Shown here piece after piece: positions 3,001-60,211 of a stretch of 64,000 bases of DNA. Source of the stretch: Candidatus Kerfeldbacteria bacterium (lineage in GTDB: Bacteria > Patescibacteriota > Patescibacteriia > UBA10025 > JAHIVO01); assembly GCA_016214565.1 (NCBI GenBank), contig JACROE010000002.1, positions 37,820 through 101,819 of the forward strand, in the 5' to 3' direction. The first letter of the stretch is position 1. Each line of letters starts with the position of its first letter. The notes beneath the pieces are model-generated. The model was not told the origin of the DNA. It worked only from the letters and a program-made list of their open reading frames with translations, and did not search any database. Both the position numbers and the translations under genes were made by a program.

Positions 3001-4191
3001 TTATGAGATAATTAATGATTCAATTCCGGGCAAAGTTCCTTTTTCCAAAAATTTAAGCATCGCCCCACCGCCCATGGACATAAAAGTCATGCGCTCACCC
3101 AATCCCTGCTGTTGGATAGAGGCGATCGTCTCACCCCCGCCCACCACGGTGCGGGCCGATGATTTCGCGAGTGCCTGAGCAATGTCATTTGTTCCTGTGG
3201 CAAAGGCCGGCAGCTCAAACCACCCCATCGGCCCATTCCAGACAATGGTTTTCGCCTGGCTGATAACTTTTTGAAATAACTTAACCGTGTCCGGGCCGAT
3301 GTCCAATATTTTTTCATCCTTTTTCAAATTCCCGACAGCTCGAATATGCGTGGGCAATCCTTCGGTAATATCAGTCGCGGTAATCACATCAACCGGGATG
3401 TGCAAACGTGTATCAGTTAAATTCATTGATTTCGCTTCTGCAATCATCTCTTCTTCGATTAACGAGGTACCGACTTGCAAGCCTTGAGCACGAAGGATGG
3501 TGTTGGCCAACGCTCCTCCCAGCAGAATATTATCTACTTTGCCCAAAAGCGATTTGATCACGCCCATTTTTGTAGAAATCTTTGCGCCTCCAATAATTGC
3601 CACAAACGGACGAGTAGGGTTTTCTAAAAGATTGGATAGTTCAGTCACTTCCTTTTCTAGTTCTGGTCCAGCATAGCTCGGTATAAATTTCGGGATTCCA
3701 ATAATTGAAGCGACTTTCCGATGACTCTGGCCAAAGGCGTCATTGACAAACATATCCGCGTACTCTGCCAGTTGCTTGGCATACGCTTCGTCATAAACTT
3801 TCTCCCCCGCTTCTCCAGGATGGAATCGGACATTTTCCAGTAGCGCGACGGCGCCGGGCTGCATGTTGGCAACGGCTTGCTTCACCGGTTCACCGATACA
3901 GTCTGGCACAAAAGCCACTGGTTTGCCCAATAACTCAGTTAGTCGAGCAGCCACCGGCGCCAGGCTCATCTCCGGATTTGGTTTTCCTTCTGGCCGCTGC
4001 AGCCATGACATGAGCAGCACTTTTGCTCCCCGACCGGCCAATAACTGTACCGATGGCACAATAGCGCGGACCCGAGTATCATCTTCGATCACTTTTTTGC
4101 CGTTTTCATTATGAAAATGAACATCCAGCGCCACGCGCAGGATGACCACTTTATTATTAACATCGACGTCGTTGAGTGTACGAAGCTGCAT
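3001..4191 (-). CDS. pgk: Phosphoglycerate kinase
   Basis: 396 aa. N-terminal VILRVALDV...DTRVRA and C-terminal GGGAMLKFLEGK-like motifs (GGGAMLKFLEKGTLPGIESL) are typical of PGK. Confidence 0.95.
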   Translation of the reverse strand: MQLRTLNDVDVNNKVVILRVALDVHFHNENGKKVIEDDTRVRAIVPSVQLLAGRGAKVLLMSWLQRPEGKPNPEMSLAPVAARLTELLGKPVAFVPDCIGEPVKQAVANMQPGAVALLENVRFHPGEAGEKVYDEAYAKQLAEYADMFVNDAFGQSHRKVASIIGIPKFIPSYAGPELEKEVTELSNLLENPTRPFVAIIGGAKISTKMGVIKSLLGKVDNILLGGALANTILRAQGLQVGTSLIEEEMIAEAKSMNLTDTRLHIPVDVITATDITEGLPTHIRAVGNLKKDEKILDIGPDTVKLFQKVISQAKTIVWNGPMGWFELPAFATGTNDIAQALAKSSARTVVGGGETIASIQQQGLGERMTFMSMGGGAMLKFLEKGTLPGIESLIIS

Positions 4192-4312: not shown

Positions 4313-7213
4313 CTATTCTTGAGCCGGCAAAGATGACGATGCTTCATCATCTGCCAATTTCTTCACCGCCTCCTCCATCCCCTCATGGTAAATCGGTATA
4401 CGCACGTGGAATGTAGAGCCCTTGCCTATTCCTTCTGAATCAACCCAAATTCTACCGCTGTGAGCTTCGGTTAAACGACGTGCCACATACAGCCCAAGGC
4501 CTGAACCGTCGGGGTTCACCTGAGCTATCCCGAATCCACGGACAAATTTAGTAAATAATTTTTTAGCTTCCTCGGGATCAATGCCGCGGCCAGTATCATG
4601 AACCGTTGTCTCAATAAATGCGCCGTCAAGTTTTTGAGCCACCGTAACGCTTCCTTTGTCAGTATACTTTATTGCGTTATCAACCAAGTTCATGATGACG
4701 TCGCCTAATTTATCAGCATCGGCAAATACGGGCGGTAATTTTTCTTTTTGCGACTTGTAAATTAATTTCAAACCTTTGTCAGTCGCCGCTTTCTTGGAAA
4801 TATTTACAACCTTTTCTATCAATCCTTCCATCTGCATCGGTACTTGGTTGAGAGTCATCTTGCCAGACTCAATCTTGGACACGTTAAGGAAAAGATTGAT
4901 CAACCGAATCATGCGCTGTGATTCTTCGAGCAAGCCCTGAAGGATCTTCAGCTGTTCGTTTGGCACTTTACCAAAGTCGCCTTGAGTAATCATGGAAAGA
5001 TATCCCATAATGCCAGTCATCGGCGTACGCAATTGGTGTGAAGCTATCGAAACAAATTCCGACTTTGCCTGATCGAGCTGCTGCAAATGGACGTTTGCTT
5101 CAGCCAGATGGACGTTTGATTCCTCAATTTGTTTATATAACTGAATATTGCGATAGACGATGCCGGTCTGACTAGCCAATGCTTTCATGGCATCGAGATC
5201 GGTCGCTTTCAATTCCCCGTGTTCTTGCTGAAGCATAAAATTAATAACACCCACAATAACATTTTCCGCATACACCGGCACTCCCACGACCGTCTTAATC
5301 CCCGCTAATTTCTGCATGCCAAATGCGACCAAGGGTGGCACCGCGGGTGAAATAAAGTCTGACAGTTTTTCGCTGATTTGGACTTTCCCGGTACTAATCG
5401 CTTTTACCGAATAACTGTCATCTTCGGGGAAATATCCATAATACGAATTCAACGGCTTGGGCAATAGCTTGAGCGCTTTCTCGGTCAATGGAGTCCGGGT
5501 GACGGCTTCAGGAAATAATTTATGCCGGTCTTTACCCAGCAATAATAATACACCGCCCAAGTAGCCCAGCTCTGAGGCAATGCTGTCCACAACTGATTGG
5601 GTGACTTTTGCAAAATCAAGAGTGCGGGAAATAAGCGTCGTCACCTTTTGTAATGCTTGGAGGAACCGATTCCGCTCTTGCAGCTGCATATTCGCATTGC
5701 GCAAATCGCCCGTCGCTACCGCCACCTCTTTTTTCAAACGCTCAGTAAATTGCTGCGCCTCTTCATACAGCCGCGATTTCTCAAGTGCGGAGGCAAGTTG
5801 CGGACCGATCAGGCTCAATACATTCAGGTCTTCACTGCCAAATGGATCTCCGGATAATTTCGGTCCCAGCACCATGACTGCATTAATGGTATTCCCGACG
5901 GTCACTGGTGCGACGACGGCCGCGTCAAGCGTGTCGAGTGAAGCTTTTGATGATTCTAATATTTTTCTCGATTCTTCGTCTTGGGTATCTTCGATCTTTC
6001 GCTCCAGCGCCTCGAGCACAATAATATCTTGCTTTGAACGCAAATATTTAATCAATGGATTGTCATGCCGTATCCGATTGGCAATGTCGGTTTTTTCTTC
6101 TTCAGTCAGTTGTTCAAACACTTGGTCGCTCACCTTATGGCCACCCTTGTCCACTCGGCCAATGCGTTTGTAGAATGCTCCGCCCGTAGAACCAGCTAAA
6201 TAAATGCTCACATTTTTTATCTTCAGGTCTTTCTCTAATCTATGCGTCAAGGAAAAAAGCAAAATGTCCAAATCAATTTCCCGATTAATAATCTCCGACA
6301 GCTCGCTGGAAAGTTTTTGGTAATCCACGCGGGCTTTGAAGAAAAGTTTATCTGTGGCGCTTGCAATCCATCGTTTAAGTGGATCTAGAATTGAAACTAT
6401 AACCCCCGCAATAGTAACGGCGGCAAGTGCTTTTATACTATCATCAACTTTCAAATACTCGGGAATGAAAATTATTACACCCACAACTGTTGCCGATACA
6501 ATTATTACAACAATGGAATAAGTTACAGTTCTTAATACAAATATTCTTATATCTAAAAGCTTATGTTTTAATATTGCGTAAACAATAAATATTAGCCAAA
6601 TAATTGAAAAAGAGGGTCCAATTTGAATTAATTTATAATTACCAATCCAAGGTAAAATTAAATTAAACGTAACCCCAAGAATGCCTGACATTAGGGTGCC
6701 AATGAGTAAATATTTAAATTGTAACTTTAGTATACCCCGAGCTCTTTGATAGTTTCGGAAAAGGTTAAAAAATAGCAACAAAAAGTATATTATAAACCAC
6801 ACCCCAAAAAAATGGTACGCTGGACCTAAAGTAACAATATTTGGTTCCGAAATTGTTACTTTTTCTATGAATATCTTAGTTGGAATGATTAATAAAAAAA
6901 TTACAAATGGAAGAAATGAGATAATTTGCAAGCTTCTTGAAAATTTACTGTGCCGATACGGAAATAAATAAGAAAACTGAAATAAAGTTGTAGCAATTAC
7001 CCCAGCCGAAATATAGTAAATAACTACCCAAATTTTTGCTGTAATAACATCACTCGATATTCTAAACATAGCTATGCCGAAAACCCATCCAATAATTCCG
7101 ACCACATAAAAAAGAAAAACTTTATTCTTTAAAGTCTTACTTTTCCTATAAACAAGAAGTAGTAATAAAACCAATTCTAATATGGCCTCAGAGATGAGAA
7201 TGACATTAAACAT
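4313..7213 (-). CDS. Sensor histidine kinase: N-terminal 7TM receptor module, two GAF domains with a coiled coil, HisKA and HATPase_c
   Basis: 966 aa. About 7 hydrophobic helices in the first 250 aa. H-box SHQLRTPMTGIMGYLSMI. HATPase motifs NLVDNAIKYT, HDTGRGI, GSGLGL. No receiver domain. Confidence 0.85.
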   Translation of the reverse strand: MFNVILISEAILELVLLLLLVYRKSKTLKNKVFLFYVVGIIGWVFGIAMFRISSDVITAKIWVVIYYISAGVIATTLFQFSYLFPYRHSKFSRSLQIISFLPFVIFLLIIPTKIFIEKVTISEPNIVTLGPAYHFFGVWFIIYFLLLFFNLFRNYQRARGILKLQFKYLLIGTLMSGILGVTFNLILPWIGNYKLIQIGPSFSIIWLIFIVYAILKHKLLDIRIFVLRTVTYSIVVIIVSATVVGVIIFIPEYLKVDDSIKALAAVTIAGVIVSILDPLKRWIASATDKLFFKARVDYQKLSSELSEIINREIDLDILLFSLTHRLEKDLKIKNVSIYLAGSTGGAFYKRIGRVDKGGHKVSDQVFEQLTEEEKTDIANRIRHDNPLIKYLRSKQDIIVLEALERKIEDTQDEESRKILESSKASLDTLDAAVVAPVTVGNTINAVMVLGPKLSGDPFGSEDLNVLSLIGPQLASALEKSRLYEEAQQFTERLKKEVAVATGDLRNANMQLQERNRFLQALQKVTTLISRTLDFAKVTQSVVDSIASELGYLGGVLLLLGKDRHKLFPEAVTRTPLTEKALKLLPKPLNSYYGYFPEDDSYSVKAISTGKVQISEKLSDFISPAVPPLVAFGMQKLAGIKTVVGVPVYAENVIVGVINFMLQQEHGELKATDLDAMKALASQTGIVYRNIQLYKQIEESNVHLAEANVHLQQLDQAKSEFVSIASHQLRTPMTGIMGYLSMITQGDFGKVPNEQLKILQGLLEESQRMIRLINLFLNVSKIESGKMTLNQVPMQMEGLIEKVVNISKKAATDKGLKLIYKSQKEKLPPVFADADKLGDVIMNLVDNAIKYTDKGSVTVAQKLDGAFIETTVHDTGRGIDPEEAKKLFTKFVRGFGIAQVNPDGSGLGLYVARRLTEAHSGRIWVDSEGIGKGSTFHVRIPIYHEGMEEAVKKLADDEASSSLPAQE

Positions 7214-57888: not shown

Positions 57889-58417
57889 AGGTTAGACCTT
57901 TTTTACTCCCCATCATTTCATTATAGTGCTGCTTGGACCAATCCGCACGCGCCACGCCAAGCCGCTCTAATGCCTTAGCTAATTTCAATTGATTGCTTTT
58001 CGTATTTGCCCCTTGGATCTCCACTTCCACAAACCAACCCAATCCTTTTACCTGGTCAATGACAATTTCAACTTTCCCCAACCGATACACACGCCTCTTC
58101 TTCTCCACTGCATACGCCTCTTTCATTCTTAATTCTTTCAACACTGTTCGCAGAATAGCCTCATCCCCTACCGGCACTTCAATCTCCGTGGCAGCATATC
58201 GACCCGAGCTCATATGAAGTTCGAGCCGTGTCTCCTTACTGATATAATCATGCCGCACGCGCAGTATTTTTCCTGATCGCTTGGTAAATGATAGGCCAAA
58301 TGGCTGATAATACCGATCTACTTGATGTTTCCGGCCAACATACCGTGCACCCAACTGCTTGAGCCTGCGTTCTAATTCAGGACGATTGCGAATATGTGCT
58401 TTAATTTCTATTTCCAT
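57875..58417 (-). CDS. CYTH-domain protein (triphosphate tunnel metalloenzyme, CyaB-like)
   Basis: 180 aa. Starts MEIEIKA (the ExExK motif). R/K/E residues pattern on alternating beta strands. Confidence 0.7.
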   Translation of the reverse strand: MEIEIKAHIRNRPELERRLKQLGARYVGRKHQVDRYYQPFGLSFTKRSGKILRVRHDYISKETRLELHMSSGRYAATEIEVPVGDEAILRTVLKELRMKEAYAVEKKRRVYRLGKVEIVIDQVKGLGWFVEVEIQGANTKSNQLKLAKALERLGVARADWSKQHYNEMMGSKKGLTYAYF

Positions 58418-59159
58418 GGCTTTTCCAGGTAATGCGTTTTAATAATGGCCCATACAAATCTTCATCCCAACCAATGGTAAATGCGCTGTACTTTTTTCGC
58501 GGGCGATAGGGTTGGGCGGTAAAGGCTACTTGGGGCACGTCTGAGATGACAACCAATGGAGTTTGCTCAGTCCCCTCACCCATGGCAAACACCGCCGCAC
58601 CCGCCAGTGCATCCACCACATTGGTGGTGGACACTTTAAACTTTCTGCCAAACAAGTCTTTGGTGCCGCGATAATCGTTAATCGGACGAAAACCATAGTG
58701 CCCCAGTCCAATGCCTAATACGCCGCGACGCATGGGCACGGTATGACTGTCAGTAATGACCACGCCAACTTTTTTCACGCGATACGTTTTCCGTAACCAT
58801 TGCCAAATTTCTTTGGCAATTTTTTCCGGCTGCTTGGGCCAGAGCACATAGTACTCGCCGCTATTTGAGGCATCAATGCCAGCAGATGGTATTAAAATAT
58901 TATGTTTGATAGTTAAAACGGCGTAGCCACCTGGAACAAATCGGCGCGGTATATATTTATCCGCTTCTTTGATAATGAGTTCATCTTTACTTTTCACCGA
59001 ATCCTTCCGGACGCACCGTCCCTGATGGATACTGACTACTTTCGAGGCAATAGCAATGATAGAACCCTCGTGCACCTGCCGCAAACCCTTACGCAAAACA
59101 GCGTACAGATCGTCCTGCGGCGGATAAAAAACTTTAGTTTTTATGGCTTTTACGCGCAT
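58401..59159 (-). CDS. CofE-like gamma-glutamyl ligase, coenzyme F420-0:L-glutamate ligase family
   Basis: 252 aa, collinear with archaeal CofE (IIAIASKVVSIHQGR, SAGIDASNSGE, VGVVITDSHTVPMRRGVLGIGLG, KDLFGRKFKVSTTNVVDALAGAAVFAMGEG). Confidence 0.7.
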   Translation of the reverse strand: MRVKAIKTKVFYPPQDDLYAVLRKGLRQVHEGSIIAIASKVVSIHQGRCVRKDSVKSKDELIIKEADKYIPRRFVPGGYAVLTIKHNILIPSAGIDASNSGEYYVLWPKQPEKIAKEIWQWLRKTYRVKKVGVVITDSHTVPMRRGVLGIGLGHYGFRPINDYRGTKDLFGRKFKVSTTNVVDALAGAAVFAMGEGTEQTPLVVISDVPQVAFTAQPYRPRKKYSAFTIGWDEDLYGPLLKRITWKSHGNRN

Positions 59160-59207
59160 AGAATTAACATAATCATAGCATTTTTAACACTTCTCCGATA
59201 TGGGGCT

Positions 59208-59236
59208 TGACACTAAACATGGTTAGTGGTATGGTA
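59208..59236 (+). promoter_or_regulatory. Candidate sigma70-type promoter upstream of the tRNA / GIY-YIG locus
   Basis: TTGACA, 17-nt spacer, TATGGT preceded by TGG. Confidence 0.4.
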
Positions 59237-59328
59237 CTGGGTTGTAAATTGAAAACCTTTCTCGAGATGCGCTTTATGTGTTAAAATGGCGTCTAGACCT
59301 ATGTTACCCACTCAGCCGCTCTGACTGC

Positions 59329-59388
59329 CGGGGATTGGCCTAATTTCCGCCTAAGGCGGATCAGCCTCTGGCTGAGGCGAAACTTCTT
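59329..59388 (+). pseudogene. 5' fragment of a tRNA, truncated by the GIY-YIG gene
   Basis: cggggattggcctaatt (17 nt) and ctaaggcg are identical to the acceptor 5' strand and D-arm of the downstream tRNA-Pro. No T-arm follows; the sequence runs straight into the ATG of the GIY-YIG ORF. Confidence 0.4.
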
Positions 59389-59637
59389 ATGTTTACTGTA
59401 TATGTTTTGAAAAGTAAACGTAACGGAAAACGCTACGTTGGATACACATCAAAGAAGCCAACTCTACGATTGGGGGAACATAACCAAGGTTCTAATACGT
59501 GGTCTCGACATAACGGTCCATTTTCACTGATACATACTGAAAAATTTCCTGATAAAACATCTGCTATCAAACGTGAACGATTTCTGAAGTCAGATGTGGG
59601 AAGAAAATGGCTTGACAGTTTCCTGTCTGATGTCTGA
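59389..59637 (+). CDS. GIY-YIG nuclease family protein, second copy
   Basis: 82 aa. VYVLKSKRNGKRYVGYTSK...RLGEHN GIY-YIG core. Confidence 0.75.
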   Translation: MFTVYVLKSKRNGKRYVGYTSKKPTLRLGEHNQGSNTWSRHNGPFSLIHTEKFPDKTSAIKRERFLKSDVGRKWLDSFLSDV

Positions 59638-59649
59638 CGCGATCTCCGT

Positions 59650-59723
59650 CGGGGATTGGCCTAATTGGCTAAGGCGCACGATTCGGGTTCGTGAGATTCC
59701 GGGTTCAAGTCCCGGATCCCCGA
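59650..59723 (+). tRNA. tRNA-Pro (anticodon CGG)
   Basis: Cloverleaf by hand. Acceptor CGGGGAT / ATCCCCG with C1:G72, as in bacterial tRNA-Pro. U8. D-stem GCCT/AGGC. Anticodon stem CACGA/TCGTG. Loop TTCGGGT with U33, anticodon CGG, G37. T-arm CCGGG-TTCAAGT-CCCGG. Discriminator A73. No encoded CCA. Confidence 0.85.
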
Positions 59724-59778
59724 CGGAGATCGGATCAAAAGCTAATAAAAAAGTCACAACAGCTGTATATTACAATTG

Positions 59779-59836
59779 TGCCTGCACATGAATAATTCAT
59801 TCGCGAATCGTTCATGTGCATTCATAATTACGTGAA
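59779..59836. promoter_or_regulatory. Cluster of palindromes built from ATTCA/TGAAT half-sites, a candidate operator upstream of a small gene
   Basis: ATGAATAATTCAT (a 13-bp perfect palindrome) and GCATTCATAATTACGTGAATGC within 60 bp. Confidence 0.35.
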
Positions 59837-59978
59837 TGCGAAACCTTCACCCTTCCTTTTTAGGAGGACACCTTGATCCTTTCATCTTCTCCTCACAGTC
59901 CGCCGAGACATTGATTCATTATTTGGATCACACAGATGAGTAACCAAAAACTTTTCAATGTCATCGGAGGACTATCTA

Positions 59979-60211
59979 TGAGTAAATCTACGCAAGTTCA
60001 GCTGGCTGAACTGTTCCCCAAGGGTTCCGGCCGTGCACCAGAAGGCACCAGAATTCACTTTCAGCCGGACGGGCTGAATGAAACGGTGACCGGTACGGTC
60101 AAGAAAAGATCGGGCAATATGGCCCGCATCGAATTCCTGGATCCCAATAAGAGTGGGGCGCCAACCAGAGTTGACCTTCCTCTCACACAGGTCGTCACCA
60201 AACTCGGCTAA
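59979..60211 (+). CDS. Small hypothetical protein
   Basis: The ORF opens at 59936, but the likely start is MSKST, with a GGAGG ribosome-binding site 7 nt upstream. 77 aa, no motif. Confidence 0.4.

What the first reader, a model, noticed from the sequence alone, without database searches (positions are those of the whole stretch)
59290..59735. GIY-YIG gene wedged between a 5' tRNA fragment and an intact tRNA-Pro(CGG) whose acceptor helix extends to 16 bp
The 17-nt acceptor and D-arm 5' sequence cggggattggcctaatt plus ctaaggcg occurs twice. The first occurrence, at 59329-59388, decays into the start of the GIY-YIG ORF. The second is the 5' end of a complete tRNA-Pro with anticodon CGG, C1:G72 and A73. 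This looks like a nuclease cassette that has disrupted or duplicated part of a tRNA gene, as in tRNA-targeted integration. The intact tRNA is also embedded in a perfect 15-nt inverted repeat, gatctccgtcgggga / tccccgacggagatc, which extends the acceptor helix by 9 bp. That is atypical for a bacterial tRNA precursor. It could be a processing signal, an element boundary, or a recombination site.
Basis: seen in the sequence. Interest (0 to 1): 0.55.

Follow-up and report, generated by a model that had tools for sequence, protein, structure and literature searches.

The report
Nuclease cassette inserted in tRNA-Pro gene
A tiny selfish DNA cassette, consisting of an 82-residue nuclease gene, a 30-base double hairpin and a replacement copy of the tRNA, has inserted into a proline tRNA gene, and it belongs to a large, apparently undescribed family that targets tRNA genes in many uncultured bacteria.

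Summary
An intact tRNA-Pro(CGG) lies at 59650-59723. A copy of its first 27 bases lies at 59329-59379 and is interrupted by a GC-rich double hairpin. An 82-aa GIY-YIG ORF lies between them.

A close relative (L209) has the same promoter, leader and an identical tRNA. It has no ORF, no fragment, no hairpin and no helix extension. The whole arrangement is therefore an insertion.

The arrangement is a family trait. Of 83 homologous ORFs in 80 metagenome loci, 55 sit directly upstream of an intact tRNA, mostly Asn. At least 16 sit upstream of a tRNA split by a group I intron. Nearly all have an upstream 5' tRNA pseudo-half carrying precise 30-nt hairpin modules. In 13 of the 16 intron loci the pseudo-half ends exactly at the intron site (35/36).

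The protein is an Slx1/UPF0213-like minimal nuclease domain with no DNA-binding domain.

Best reading: a free-standing homing-type cassette that restores its target by carrying a replacement tRNA 5' part or whole tRNA. Cleavage and mobility are inferred, not shown.

I found no description of this family. A 2026 survey of Patescibacteria tRNA introns does not mention it.

The parts
59207..59235 (+). Promoter-like site (TTGACA-17-TATGGT, TG-extended) upstream of the tRNA locus. It probably drives the pseudo-half, the ORF and the tRNA as one transcript.
   Evidence: Consensus scan. The same sequence is conserved in the empty-site relative L209. Function is inferred.
59329..59345 (+). Pseudo-tRNA-Pro 5' fragment, part A. 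It matches tRNA bases 1-17 at 17/17 and sits at the native tRNA position behind the native leader.
   Evidence: D1. In the alignment to L209 the leader ...cagccgctctgactgc is shared.
59346..59375 (+). 30-nt double-hairpin module: TCCGCC-TAA-GGCGGA followed by TCAGCC-TCT-GGCTGA. Its last 6 nt coincide with the resumed tRNA copy.
   Evidence: The same module occurs in homologous cassettes. It is absent from the empty site.
59370..59379 (+). Pseudo-tRNA-Pro fragment, part B. ggctGaggcg matches tRNA bases 18-27 with one mismatch at 59374. Homology to the tRNA ends at 59379.
   Evidence: Read directly by comparison with 59667-59676.
59380..59388 (+). 9-nt spacer (aaacttctt) before the start codon.
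59389..59637 (+). 82-aa minimal GIY-YIG nuclease gene of the Slx1/UPF0213-like type. GC is 38.6% against 47.2% for the window.
   Evidence: Pfam E=1e-15. AlphaFold pLDDT 95. Best folds are UPF0213 and Slx1. PDB sequence hits 1ywl and 1zg2. GC content.
59635..59649 (+). New tRNA leader and 5' arm of the extended helix. 59640-59649 pairs with 59723-59732, and the stop codon 59635-37 pairs with 59735-37.
   Evidence: (I1). Absent from the empty site.
59650..59723 (+). Intact tRNA-Pro(CGG) with C1:G72 and A73. No CCA is encoded. It is 74/74 identical to the tRNA at the empty site.
59724..59751 (+). New trailer. A 27-nt insertion (59725-59751) relative to the empty site. Its first ~14 nt are the reverse complement of the new leader and form the 3' arm of the helix.
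   Evidence: Alignment. Reverse-complement comparison.

Best explanation
The locus holds a small selfish cassette that entered the tRNA-Pro(CGG) gene of this Kerfeldbacteria genome. The cassette consists of a 30-nt double hairpin, a 9-nt spacer, an 82-aa Slx1-like GIY-YIG nuclease gene, a short new leader and a tRNA copy. It displaced the first 27 bases of the resident tRNA, which remain upstream as a pseudo-half behind the native promoter. Because the cassette supplies a replacement tRNA 5' part (or a whole tRNA), the cell keeps a working tRNA-Pro and the insertion costs nothing. The ORF and the tRNA are probably read from the native tRNA promoter.

Inferred mechanism: the nuclease breaks a cassette-free tRNA gene, and the break is repaired from a cassette-bearing copy. 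The pseudo-half serves as the left homology arm and the tRNA body as the right arm. This is homing without an intron.

The helix extension is most likely a DNA-level by-product. The trailer is an inverted copy of the new leader, including the ORF's stop codon. This is what fold-back priming on the acceptor-stem palindrome at a break at the tRNA 3' end would produce. The extension may additionally aid processing or termination.

Shown: the insertion polymorphism, the family-wide architecture, the protein fold, and the coincidence of cassette boundary and intron site in relatives. Inferred: cleavage, target, homing, co-transcription, and the origin and role of the helix and of the hairpin.
For: (1) Filled and empty alleles exist. 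L209 has the same promoter and leader and an identical tRNA, but no fragment, hairpin, ORF or helix arms. A second pair is L001 (filled) against L231/L232 (empty) at the syntenic UppS site.
(2) The architecture is a family trait. Of 83 homologous ORFs in 80 metagenome loci, 55 are followed within -45 to +200 nt by an intact same-strand tRNA: 41 Asn, plus Val, Ile, Thr, Ala, Tyr and Met. Ser and Pro tRNAs follow the ORF in the other cassette loci. 16 are followed by an Rfam-confirmed tRNA split by a group I intron, and 4 more look intron-split by eye. 3 are followed by the next cassette and 4 end at a contig end.
(3) Nearly every locus has an upstream pseudo-half that matches its own downstream tRNA, up to 49/49 outside the insertions.
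(4) In 13 of the 16 intron loci the pseudo-half ends at the 5' splice site..gactgt|. This is the 35/36 intron site reported for Patescibacteria tRNA-Asn (PMC13011429). The arrangement matches collaborative homing (PMC3984707).
(5) Tandem or nested units occur in L141, L145, L153, L002 and L004, as expected from repeated insertion into the restored tRNA.
(6) Many ORFs use the tRNA's own TAG in the D-stem as their stop codon (tRNA start at -10 relative to the stop). This is typical of mobile ORFs fused to their target.
(7) Catalytic-type residues are conserved: Y5, Y16, G18, R27 and E51 are invariant, and H31 and E63 nearly so.
(8) The ORF has atypical GC content.
(9) The cassette occurs in MAGs assigned to Planctomycetota and Ignavibacteriaceae as well as to Patescibacteria.
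(10) Leader-trailer helices recur with unrelated sequences in 8 of 53 cassette tRNAs against 2 of 50 other tRNAs. In several, the 5' arm overlaps the ORF end.
Against: No cleavage or mobility assay exists.

An 82-aa catalytic domain has no DNA-binding domain. All characterised GIY-YIG homing enzymes have one, so how a tRNA gene would be recognised is unexplained.

The restored tRNA is identical to the presumed target (74/74), so self-immunity is unexplained at this intron-free locus.

In the window the pseudo-half ends at base 27, at the junction of the D-arm and the anticodon stem. It does not end at the anticodon site seen in the Asn cassettes, so one common cleavage site is not established.

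The 27-nt trailer insertion needs either co-conversion from a related donor or a separate event.

The enrichment of extended helices is only borderline against other tRNAs of the same loci (Fisher p=0.056).

L005 and L229 show a different order (ORF, then intact or upstream tRNA, then a module-disrupted second copy). The simple model does not predict this.
Confidence: 0.62

Rival explanations
1. The 30-nt double hairpin is the true mobile unit, a very small non-autonomous element. The GIY-YIG protein is its structure-specific nuclease or 'transposase', analogous to REP/RAYT or to IS200/IS605 hairpin elements. The copy next to the gene is the master copy. tRNA genes are hit because their DNA forms hairpins, and the tRNA duplications are repair scars.
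For: The module is a discrete, precise 30-nt insertion with no target duplication, placed after a T in 24 of 29 cases. It lies at tRNA positions 8, 12, 17 and 28. New copies nest inside the loops of older ones. It is the only copy in 64 kb and sits exactly at the cassette. Solitary copies are widespread across phyla, and 68 of 129 lie inside long ORFs. The protein's nearest folds are Slx1 enzymes that cut branched and hairpin DNA. In L229 and L005 the module disrupts whichever tRNA copy is redundant.
Against: Only 8 of the 120 module loci carry this GIY-YIG subfamily within the 8 kb fetched; most do not. Genome-level co-occurrence could not be tested. This model does not by itself explain why the pseudo-half ends at the group I intron site. 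No precedent exists for a GIY-YIG enzyme moving hairpin elements.
Confidence: 0.2
2. The ORF is a host gene for a tRNA-linked nuclease or RNA-processing factor that is simply co-transcribed with tRNAs. The upstream fragment is the remnant of an ordinary tandem tRNA duplication.
For: The ORF is always adjacent to, and co-oriented with, a tRNA. Dunin-Horkawicz et al. noted a fusion of a prokaryotic Slx1-like domain to a TrmH tRNA methylase and suggested a link to RNA metabolism (PMC1564403).
Against: Close relatives show presence/absence polymorphism with an identical tRNA. The tRNA partners vary (Asn, Val, Ile, Thr, Ala, Met, Ser, Pro). Tandem and degraded copies occur. The distribution is patchy across phyla. 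GC content is atypical. The pseudo-halves end at an intron insertion site.
Confidence: 0.06
3. The cassette is a decayed group I intron with its endonuclease gene. The ribozyme core has been lost and the 'pseudo-half' is the old 5' exon.
For: About a quarter of family members sit next to tRNAs split by group I introns, and the pseudo-half then ends at the splice site.
Against: No ribozyme is detectable in the window, even at E<=10. The boundary here is base 27, not the anticodon loop. In the intron-bearing relatives the ORF lies outside the intron, upstream of a complete 5' exon.
Confidence: 0.07
4. Remnant of an integrase-mediated island or prophage that integrated at the tRNA gene.
For: tRNA genes are classic integration sites, and a partial tRNA duplicate is present.
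Against: Integrases duplicate the 3' part of the tRNA, whereas here the 5' part is duplicated. The insert is only about 320 nt plus 27 nt. The neighbouring genes are housekeeping genes (F420-ligase-like, CYTH, RarA, adenylosuccinate lyase) in the same order as in relatives. No integrase is present.
Confidence: 0.02

Closest known systems
Free-standing GIY-YIG homing endonucleases of T4-like phages (SegB in the tRNA gene cluster; 'intronless homing')
   Same: A GIY-YIG nuclease gene lies between or next to tRNA genes with no intron of its own. It is thought to spread by cutting the endonuclease-free allele and being copied in during repair (PMC2330249; PMC3984707).
   Different: Seg proteins are about 200+ aa and have a C-terminal DNA-binding domain; this one is an 82-aa catalytic domain only. 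Seg genes rely on homologous phage flanks, whereas this cassette carries its own homology as a duplicated tRNA 5' part. This cassette is chromosomal and spread across bacterial phyla. Only 2 relatives were found in viral contigs.
[quoted passage not shown]
   Same: [quoted passage not shown] The cassette boundary coincides with the intron site (concept in PMC3984707 and PMC2790892).
   Different: The window's tRNA-Pro has no intron. The gene lies upstream of the target, with a duplicated 5' exon. These are bacterial chromosomes, not phages.
Group I introns at position 35/36 of Patescibacteria tRNA-Asn/Asp (Nakagawa et al. 2026, PMC13011429)
   Same: Same host phylum, same tRNA (Asn) and same site (35/36) as the end of the pseudo-halves in the related cassettes.
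   Different: That survey looked for endonuclease genes only inside introns longer than 500 bp. It found HNH genes in four and concluded that mobility is limited. It does not mention GIY-YIG (0 occurrences) or upstream pseudo-halves.
Mobile endonuclease ORF with a duplicated gene segment and GC-rich double-hairpin elements in Allomyces mitochondria (Paquin and Lang; recalled from memory, not checked here); yeast mitochondrial GC clusters (PMC4478555)
   Same: An endonuclease ORF is inserted next to a gene. It brings a replacement copy of the displaced gene part and leaves the old part as a pseudogene. Short GC-rich double hairpins sit at the borders of such insertions and also move on their own.
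   Different: That system is organellar and the target is a protein gene (atp6). The hairpin sequences are unrelated. Here the target is a tRNA gene in bacteria.
Slx1 / UPF0213 minimal GIY-YIG nucleases
   Same: The best structural matches are BH0048 (UPF0213) and the Slx1 nuclease domain (TM 0.62-0.66, rmsd 2.1-2.9 A, 23-31% identity). Sequence-profile hits are 1ywl and 1zg2. Single-domain architecture, as described for prokaryotic Slx1-like proteins (PMC1564403).
   Different: Slx1 works with Slx4 on branched DNA in repair. UPF0213 genes of Firmicutes are, to my knowledge, ordinary chromosomal genes with no tRNA linkage. No NCBIfam model names this subfamily.
Rickettsia palindromic elements and other very small palindromic repeats (cyanobacterial small dispersed repeats recalled from memory)
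   Same: Short palindromic insertions are tolerated in-frame inside protein genes and inside RNA genes (PMC1166351, listed). Solitary copies of the 30-nt module behave this way.
   Different: The module is only 30 nt. It is nearly identical across phyla and is physically linked to a nuclease gene in the cassette.

Membership tests
GIY-YIG nuclease superfamily (PF01541) | Profile match above the curated threshold | tested here: met
   58.2 bits against a cut-off of 22.6, E=1e-15, residues 2-71.
GIY-YIG nuclease superfamily (PF01541) | Conserved Tyr...Tyr-x-Gly, Arg and Glu positions, and the beta-beta-alpha-alpha-beta-alpha fold | tested here: met
   Y5, Y16, G18, R27 and E51 are invariant; H31 and E63 are at least 90% conserved in 28 homologues. 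The AlphaFold model (pLDDT 95) has strands 2-9, 15-20 and 45-53 and helices 24-32, 37-42 and 56-67. It matches the Slx1, UPF0213, I-TevI and UvrC domains.
Slx1/UPF0213-like minimal GIY-YIG | Single catalytic domain with no extra DNA-binding domain; nearest relatives are Slx1 and UPF0213 | tested here: met
   82 aa, all within the domain. Top PDB folds are 1zg2, 6seh, 7cq2 and 4xm5. HMM hits are 1ywl and 1zg2 at about 1e-7.
Slx1/UPF0213-like minimal GIY-YIG | Structure-specific cleavage of branched or hairpin DNA | not testable with these tools
   Requires biochemistry.
Free-standing homing endonuclease cassette (intronless homing) | Presence/absence polymorphism at the same site in close relatives | tested here: met
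   Window against L209. L001 against L231/L232.
Free-standing homing endonuclease cassette (intronless homing) | Site-specific cleavage of the cassette-free allele, followed by gene conversion | not testable with these tools
   No assay was possible. Tandem units (L141, L145) and the cross-phylum spread are only indirect support.
Free-standing homing endonuclease cassette (intronless homing) | Nuclease domain joined to a sequence-reading DNA-binding domain, as in I-TevI and the Seg proteins | tested here: not met
   The protein is the catalytic domain alone. I-TevI matches only through its catalytic domain, and weakly (E=0.29).
[quoted passage not shown] | Group I intron at the site where the endonuclease-linked duplication ends | tested here: not met
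   The window has no RF00028 match even at E<=10, and the tRNA is uninterrupted. The feature is met in 16 relatives, so it belongs to part of the family but not to this locus.
Integrase-type tRNA-targeted island | Tyrosine or serine integrase gene, and duplication of the tRNA 3' end as attL/attR | tested here: not met
   The 5' part is duplicated. The insert is about 350 nt. The flanking genes are syntenic housekeeping genes.
IS200/IS605- or REP/RAYT-type hairpin elements (considered for the 30-nt module) | HUH (Y1) transposase; hairpin ends; insertion without target duplication next to a short motif | tested here: not met
   No HUH protein is present; the linked gene is GIY-YIG. The hairpins and the lack of target duplication are met. 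A short target motif is inconclusive (24 of 29 insertions follow a T).
Rfam RAGATH-30 (RF03055) | Score at or above the gathering threshold | tested here: not met
   22 bits against 59.5, on the minus strand, E=0.12. It was not recovered in 20 other cassette loci at E<=0.5.

The most novel reading that the evidence does not exclude
An Slx1-like, catalytic-domain-only GIY-YIG nuclease and a 30-nt symmetric double hairpin together form a new class of structure-guided mobile element. The nuclease would recognise DNA shape (extruded tRNA-gene arms and the hairpin itself) and not sequence. This would explain several things together: how an 82-aa protein can target many different tRNA genes; why precise 30-nt hairpins with no target duplication accumulate and nest in the disabled tRNA copy; why nearly identical hairpins are scattered in-frame through protein genes of many phyla; why fold-back inverted repeats appear at tRNA 3' ends; and why ORF-less group I introns at 35/36 persist, as shields against the nuclease.
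Probability: 0.25. Interest if true: 0.85.

Novelty: new variant of a known kind. Interest (0 to 1): 0.7.

Why it matters
If the reading is right, tRNA genes of Patescibacteria and several other uncultured phyla are colonised by a very compact selfish cassette. The cassette makes itself harmless by bringing a spare part of its target, not by splicing. This extends intronless and collaborative homing from phages and organelles to bacterial chromosomes.

It would supply a missing driver for the ORF-less tRNA group I introns of Patescibacteria. A 2026 survey judged these introns nearly immobile because they lack internal endonuclease genes.

It raises a sharp mechanistic question: how can an 82-residue nuclease domain without a DNA-binding domain find tRNA genes?

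It also has practical consequences for annotation. Pseudo-halves, hairpin-split tRNA copies and ORFs that end inside tRNAs confuse gene callers. In addition, it points to a 30-nt hairpin insertion that is widespread inside protein-coding genes.

Tried and rejected
RAGATH-30: a weak minus-strand Rfam hit over the hairpin and start codon was not reproduced in 20 related loci. I treat it as chance.

Integrase island: rejected on anatomy.

Exact-protein look-up of the window ORF found nothing.

It was repeated with 13 sequences.

Strand test on the hairpin stems (G:T against A:C mismatches) was uninformative. 584 of 588 pairs are Watson-Crick, and the module reads alike on both strands.

NCBIfam and PADLOC gave no hit. 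PHROGs gave only a weak 'homing endonuclease' hit.

Viral contigs held only 15 modules and 2 relatives, so phages are not the main carriers.

I tried to test whether the intact tRNA's 5' half comes from a donor, by finding an empty-site relative of L001. The relatives have a different tRNA-Pro type altogether. This hints that the cassette can bring a whole tRNA, but it does not settle the question.

The same hairpin stem occurs with other loops at other tRNAs and outside tRNAs.

Literature searches for GIY-YIG together with tRNA, Patescibacteria, hairpin or UPF0213 found no description of this arrangement.
Full report
**1. What is in the window**

ARAGORN finds a single tRNA in the 64 kb, tRNA-Pro(CGG) at 59650-59724. 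Rfam scores it at 62.3 bits. It has C1:G72 and A73, and no CCA is encoded.

The ORF at 59389-59637 encodes 82 aa and is a GIY-YIG domain (PF01541, E=1e-15).

The first 17 bases of the tRNA recur at 59329-59345 (D1). A 30-nt GC-rich double hairpin follows at 59346-59375: TCCGCC-TAA-GGCGGA then TCAGCC-TCT-GGCTGA. Its last six bases run into ggctGaggcg (59370-59379), which is tRNA bases 18-27 with one mismatch. Nine further bases lead to the ATG.

The upstream copy therefore covers tRNA bases 1-27 and is interrupted by the hairpin. Either a full 30-nt module inserted and six bases (GGCTAA, next to GGCTGA) were then lost by slippage, or 24 nt were inserted. The sequence cannot tell these apart.

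The inverted repeat around the tRNA is 17 bp perfect (59640-59656 with 59716-59732). A 2x2 mismatch follows, then 3 bp that pair the ORF's stop codon with TCA at 59735-37.

**2. It is an insertion**

The neighbouring F420-ligase-like protein (58401-59159) has a 94%-identical homologue on a short contig, L209. Read in the same orientation, L209 has the following:
- the same promoter-like region (TTGACA-17-TATGGT);
- the same leader, ...cagccgctctgactgc;
- a tRNA-Pro identical at 74/74 positions;
- a homologous trailer.

L209 has no pseudo-fragment, no hairpin, no ORF and no helix arms.

Relative to L209 the window carries about 321 extra bases before the tRNA and 27 extra bases (59725-59751) directly after A73. 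The upstream fragment therefore marks the original tRNA position, and both arms of the extended helix arrived with the insertion.

L209 is unlikely to be an excision product, because excision between the direct repeats would leave the 27-nt trailer insert behind.

More distant syntenic genomes (L207 and L208, ligase 81% and 73% identical) also have ligase, tRNA-Pro(CGG), a small ORF and adenylosuccinate lyase, with no ORF between and no complementary flanks.

The ORF's GC content (38.6%, GC3 28.9%) is low for this window (47.2%; 7th percentile of 249-nt windows).

**3. The arrangement is a family trait**

The protein's homologues (68 clusters, 43-71% identity) come mostly from Patescibacteria. 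Some come from MAGs assigned to Planctomycetota and Ignavibacteriaceae.

The first five loci fetched all showed an intact tRNA (Pro, Asn or Val) at the ORF's stop. Four also had the matching 5' fragment and hairpin upstream. In the fifth, L005, the hairpin lies downstream of the tRNA.

A metagenome scan gave 80 further loci, with more than 433 relatives present. The 83 ORFs in these loci break down as follows:

| What follows the ORF | Count |
|---|---|
| Intact same-strand tRNA (41 Asn-GTT; also Val, Ile, Thr, Ala, Tyr, Met) | 55 |
| tRNA split by a group I intron, Rfam RF00028 at 50-93 bits | 16 |
| Same, by eye only | 4 |
| Next cassette unit | 3 |
| Contig end | 4 |
| Unclear | 1 |

In many loci the ORF ends on the TAG inside the tRNA's D-stem.

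The 130 nt upstream of almost every ORF contain a copy of the 5' part of that same tRNA. The copy is interrupted by one to four hairpin modules and is up to 49/49 identical outside them.

Tandem units occur in L141 and L145. A second, weaker-scoring GIY-YIG ORF lies directly upstream of the main one in L004 and L153 (different tRNAs in L153), and L002 carries a degraded upstream unit.

**4. Link to group I introns**

In L128 and L142 the tRNA-Asn reads ...gcagttgaCTGT | intron | TAAtca..., and the upstream pseudo-half ends at exactly the same point. Across the 16 intron loci, 13 pseudo-halves end at the 5' splice site. Intron-less Asn cassettes mostly end there too (position 34-35).

This is the 35/36 site that Nakagawa et al. 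(PMC13011429) reported in 2026 as characteristic of Patescibacteria tRNA-Asn/Asp introns. That paper searched for endonuclease genes only inside long introns. It concluded that most introns lack them and that transfer is limited, and it never mentions GIY-YIG.

A free-standing endonuclease next to an ORF-less intron at one and the same site defines collaborative homing (PMC3984707).

The window itself has no intron. Its pseudo-half ends at base 27, and a second tRNA-Pro cassette (L001) ends at base 23. The Pro lineage therefore differs in detail.

**5. The protein**

AlphaFold gives a confident model (pLDDT 95). The best solved-structure matches are:
- the UPF0213 protein BH0048;
- the nuclease domain of Slx1 (TM 0.62-0.66, rmsd 2.1-2.9 A);
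- the I-TevI and UvrC domains, which match more weakly.

Profile search of PDB sequences finds only the two UPF0213 structures.

The GIY-YIG signature residues are conserved. There is no room for a DNA-binding domain.

Prokaryotic stand-alone Slx1-like domains were described as the minimal form of the superfamily, with no link to tRNA genes noted (PMC1564403).

**6. The hairpin module**

Using each intact tRNA as the uninterrupted reference, the module is a precise 30-nt insertion (6-3-6 then 6-3-6) with no target duplication. It lies at tRNA positions 8, 12/13, 17/18 or 28, and 24 of 29 insertions follow a T.

Stems are TCCGCC, TCAGCC, CCAGCC or CCCGCC. The first loop is purine-rich and the second pyrimidine-rich, so the module reads alike on both strands. 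584 of 588 stem pairs are Watson-Crick. New copies sit inside the loops of older ones.

The 80 loci whose source was listed span many phyla. Most copies are not near a tRNA or this ORF, and 68 of 129 lie inside ORFs of at least 150 aa.

In the window it is the only copy, and it sits at the cassette. It is therefore cassette-linked here: either co-transferred with the cassette or made by the nuclease.

**7. The extended helix**

Leader-trailer complementarity of at least 9 of 12 positions occurs in 8 of 53 distinct cassette tRNAs. These are the window, L150, L196, L155, L157, L172, L131 and L103, and each has a different sequence. It occurs in 2 of 50 other tRNAs from the same loci (Fisher p=0.056). 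The chance expectation per tRNA is about 4e-4.

In the window, L157 and L172 the 5' arm overlaps the ORF's stop codon or coding end. The 3' arm must therefore be the derived copy.

I infer fold-back synthesis primed by the acceptor-stem palindrome at a break at the tRNA 3' end. A role in RNA processing or termination is an alternative or an addition. Neither is shown.

**8. Mechanism and rivals**

The best-supported reading is a homing-type cassette that neutralises its own insertion by carrying a replacement tRNA part. The pseudo-half acts as a portable homology arm.

L001 hints that a whole tRNA can travel with the cassette. Its tRNA-Pro differs at more than 20 positions from the tRNA-Pro at the syntenic, empty site of two relatives.

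Three problems remain open:
- target recognition by a domain-only nuclease;
- self-immunity at intron-free loci;
- the reversed orders seen in L005 and L229.

The main rival makes the hairpin the mobile unit and the nuclease its structure-specific mobiliser. The two models are not exclusive.

A host-function model, a decayed-intron model and an integrase-island model fit the data poorly.

**9. Novelty**

The components have precedents: SegB among T4 tRNA genes, collaborative homing, the Allomyces atp6 ORF with double-hairpin elements (recalled from memory), and Slx1-like domains.

I found no description of this family, of its tRNA pseudo-halves, or of the 30-nt module. I rate it a new variant of a known kind, with a real chance of something mechanistically new.

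Noticed in passing
L006-L125 (e.g. L084 ~4924-4953; L096 ~3242-3271): The 30-nt double hairpin also occurs alone in at least 120 genome loci. Those with a listed source include Patescibacteria, Omnitrophota, Planctomycetota, Kiritimatiellae, Ignavibacteria and uncultured Gammaproteobacteria. About half of the copies lie inside long ORFs as in-frame 10-codon insertions. One example sits in the N-terminus of a valyl-tRNA synthetase-like gene (...WEKSGYF[SAEGGSASGG]NPDKRKPYSIIMPP...; protein identity judged by eye).
   Followed up: partly
L207 ~3280-3110 (minus strand): In a syntenic relative without the GIY-YIG gene, the tRNA-Pro is followed by an insert of about 150 nt and then a duplicated tRNA 3' end (gagtcccaccaccccgaaa). 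This is a different small insertion at the same tRNA gene.
   Followed up: no
L227 1812-2320: In a Planctomycetota MAG the tRNA-Asn has this cassette upstream. Downstream it has a second, different 104-aa GIY-YIG ORF, bracketed by direct repeats of about 75 nt and followed by a duplicated tRNA 3' end. Two nuclease cassettes therefore flank one tRNA.
   Followed up: no
L229 1288-1880; L005 3234-3420: Variant gene orders occur. In L229 the order is intact tRNA-Ser(CGA), ORF, then a second tRNA-Ser copy disrupted by the hairpin. In L005 the order is ORF, tRNA-Val, hairpin, then a 5'-truncated tRNA-Val. The hairpin sits in whichever copy is redundant.
   Followed up: partly
L001 3244-3320 vs L231 1929-2004 and L232 491-566: At the syntenic UppS-linked site, the cassette-bearing genome has a tRNA-Pro(CGG) that differs at more than 20 positions from the tRNA-Pro of two cassette-free relatives (UppS 74-81% identical). 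The cassette may have brought a whole foreign tRNA gene.
   Followed up: partly
L155 ~1767-1840: After the cassette's tRNA-Thr there is a second copy of the tRNA 3' end (..gtttcgagtccgagaggcgg). This tRNA also has a 13-bp leader-trailer helix with one mismatch.
   Followed up: no
window 59774-59829: An imperfect 25-nt inverted repeat (80% complementary) lies between the tRNA and the 91-aa ORF at 59936-60211. Parts of it (catgtgcattcataa..acgtgaatg) are conserved in L209, so it may be a regulatory site of the small ORF.
   Followed up: no
L016 tRNA-Gln, L028 tRNA-Gly: Two tRNAs with no adjacent GIY-YIG ORF of this family also have 9-10 of 12 leader-trailer complementary positions. Extended acceptor helices may mark other past events at tRNA genes in these lineages.
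   Followed up: no
L195 149-511: A tmRNA gene lies about 1 kb upstream of a cassette whose tRNA-Asn carries a group I intron.
   Followed up: no
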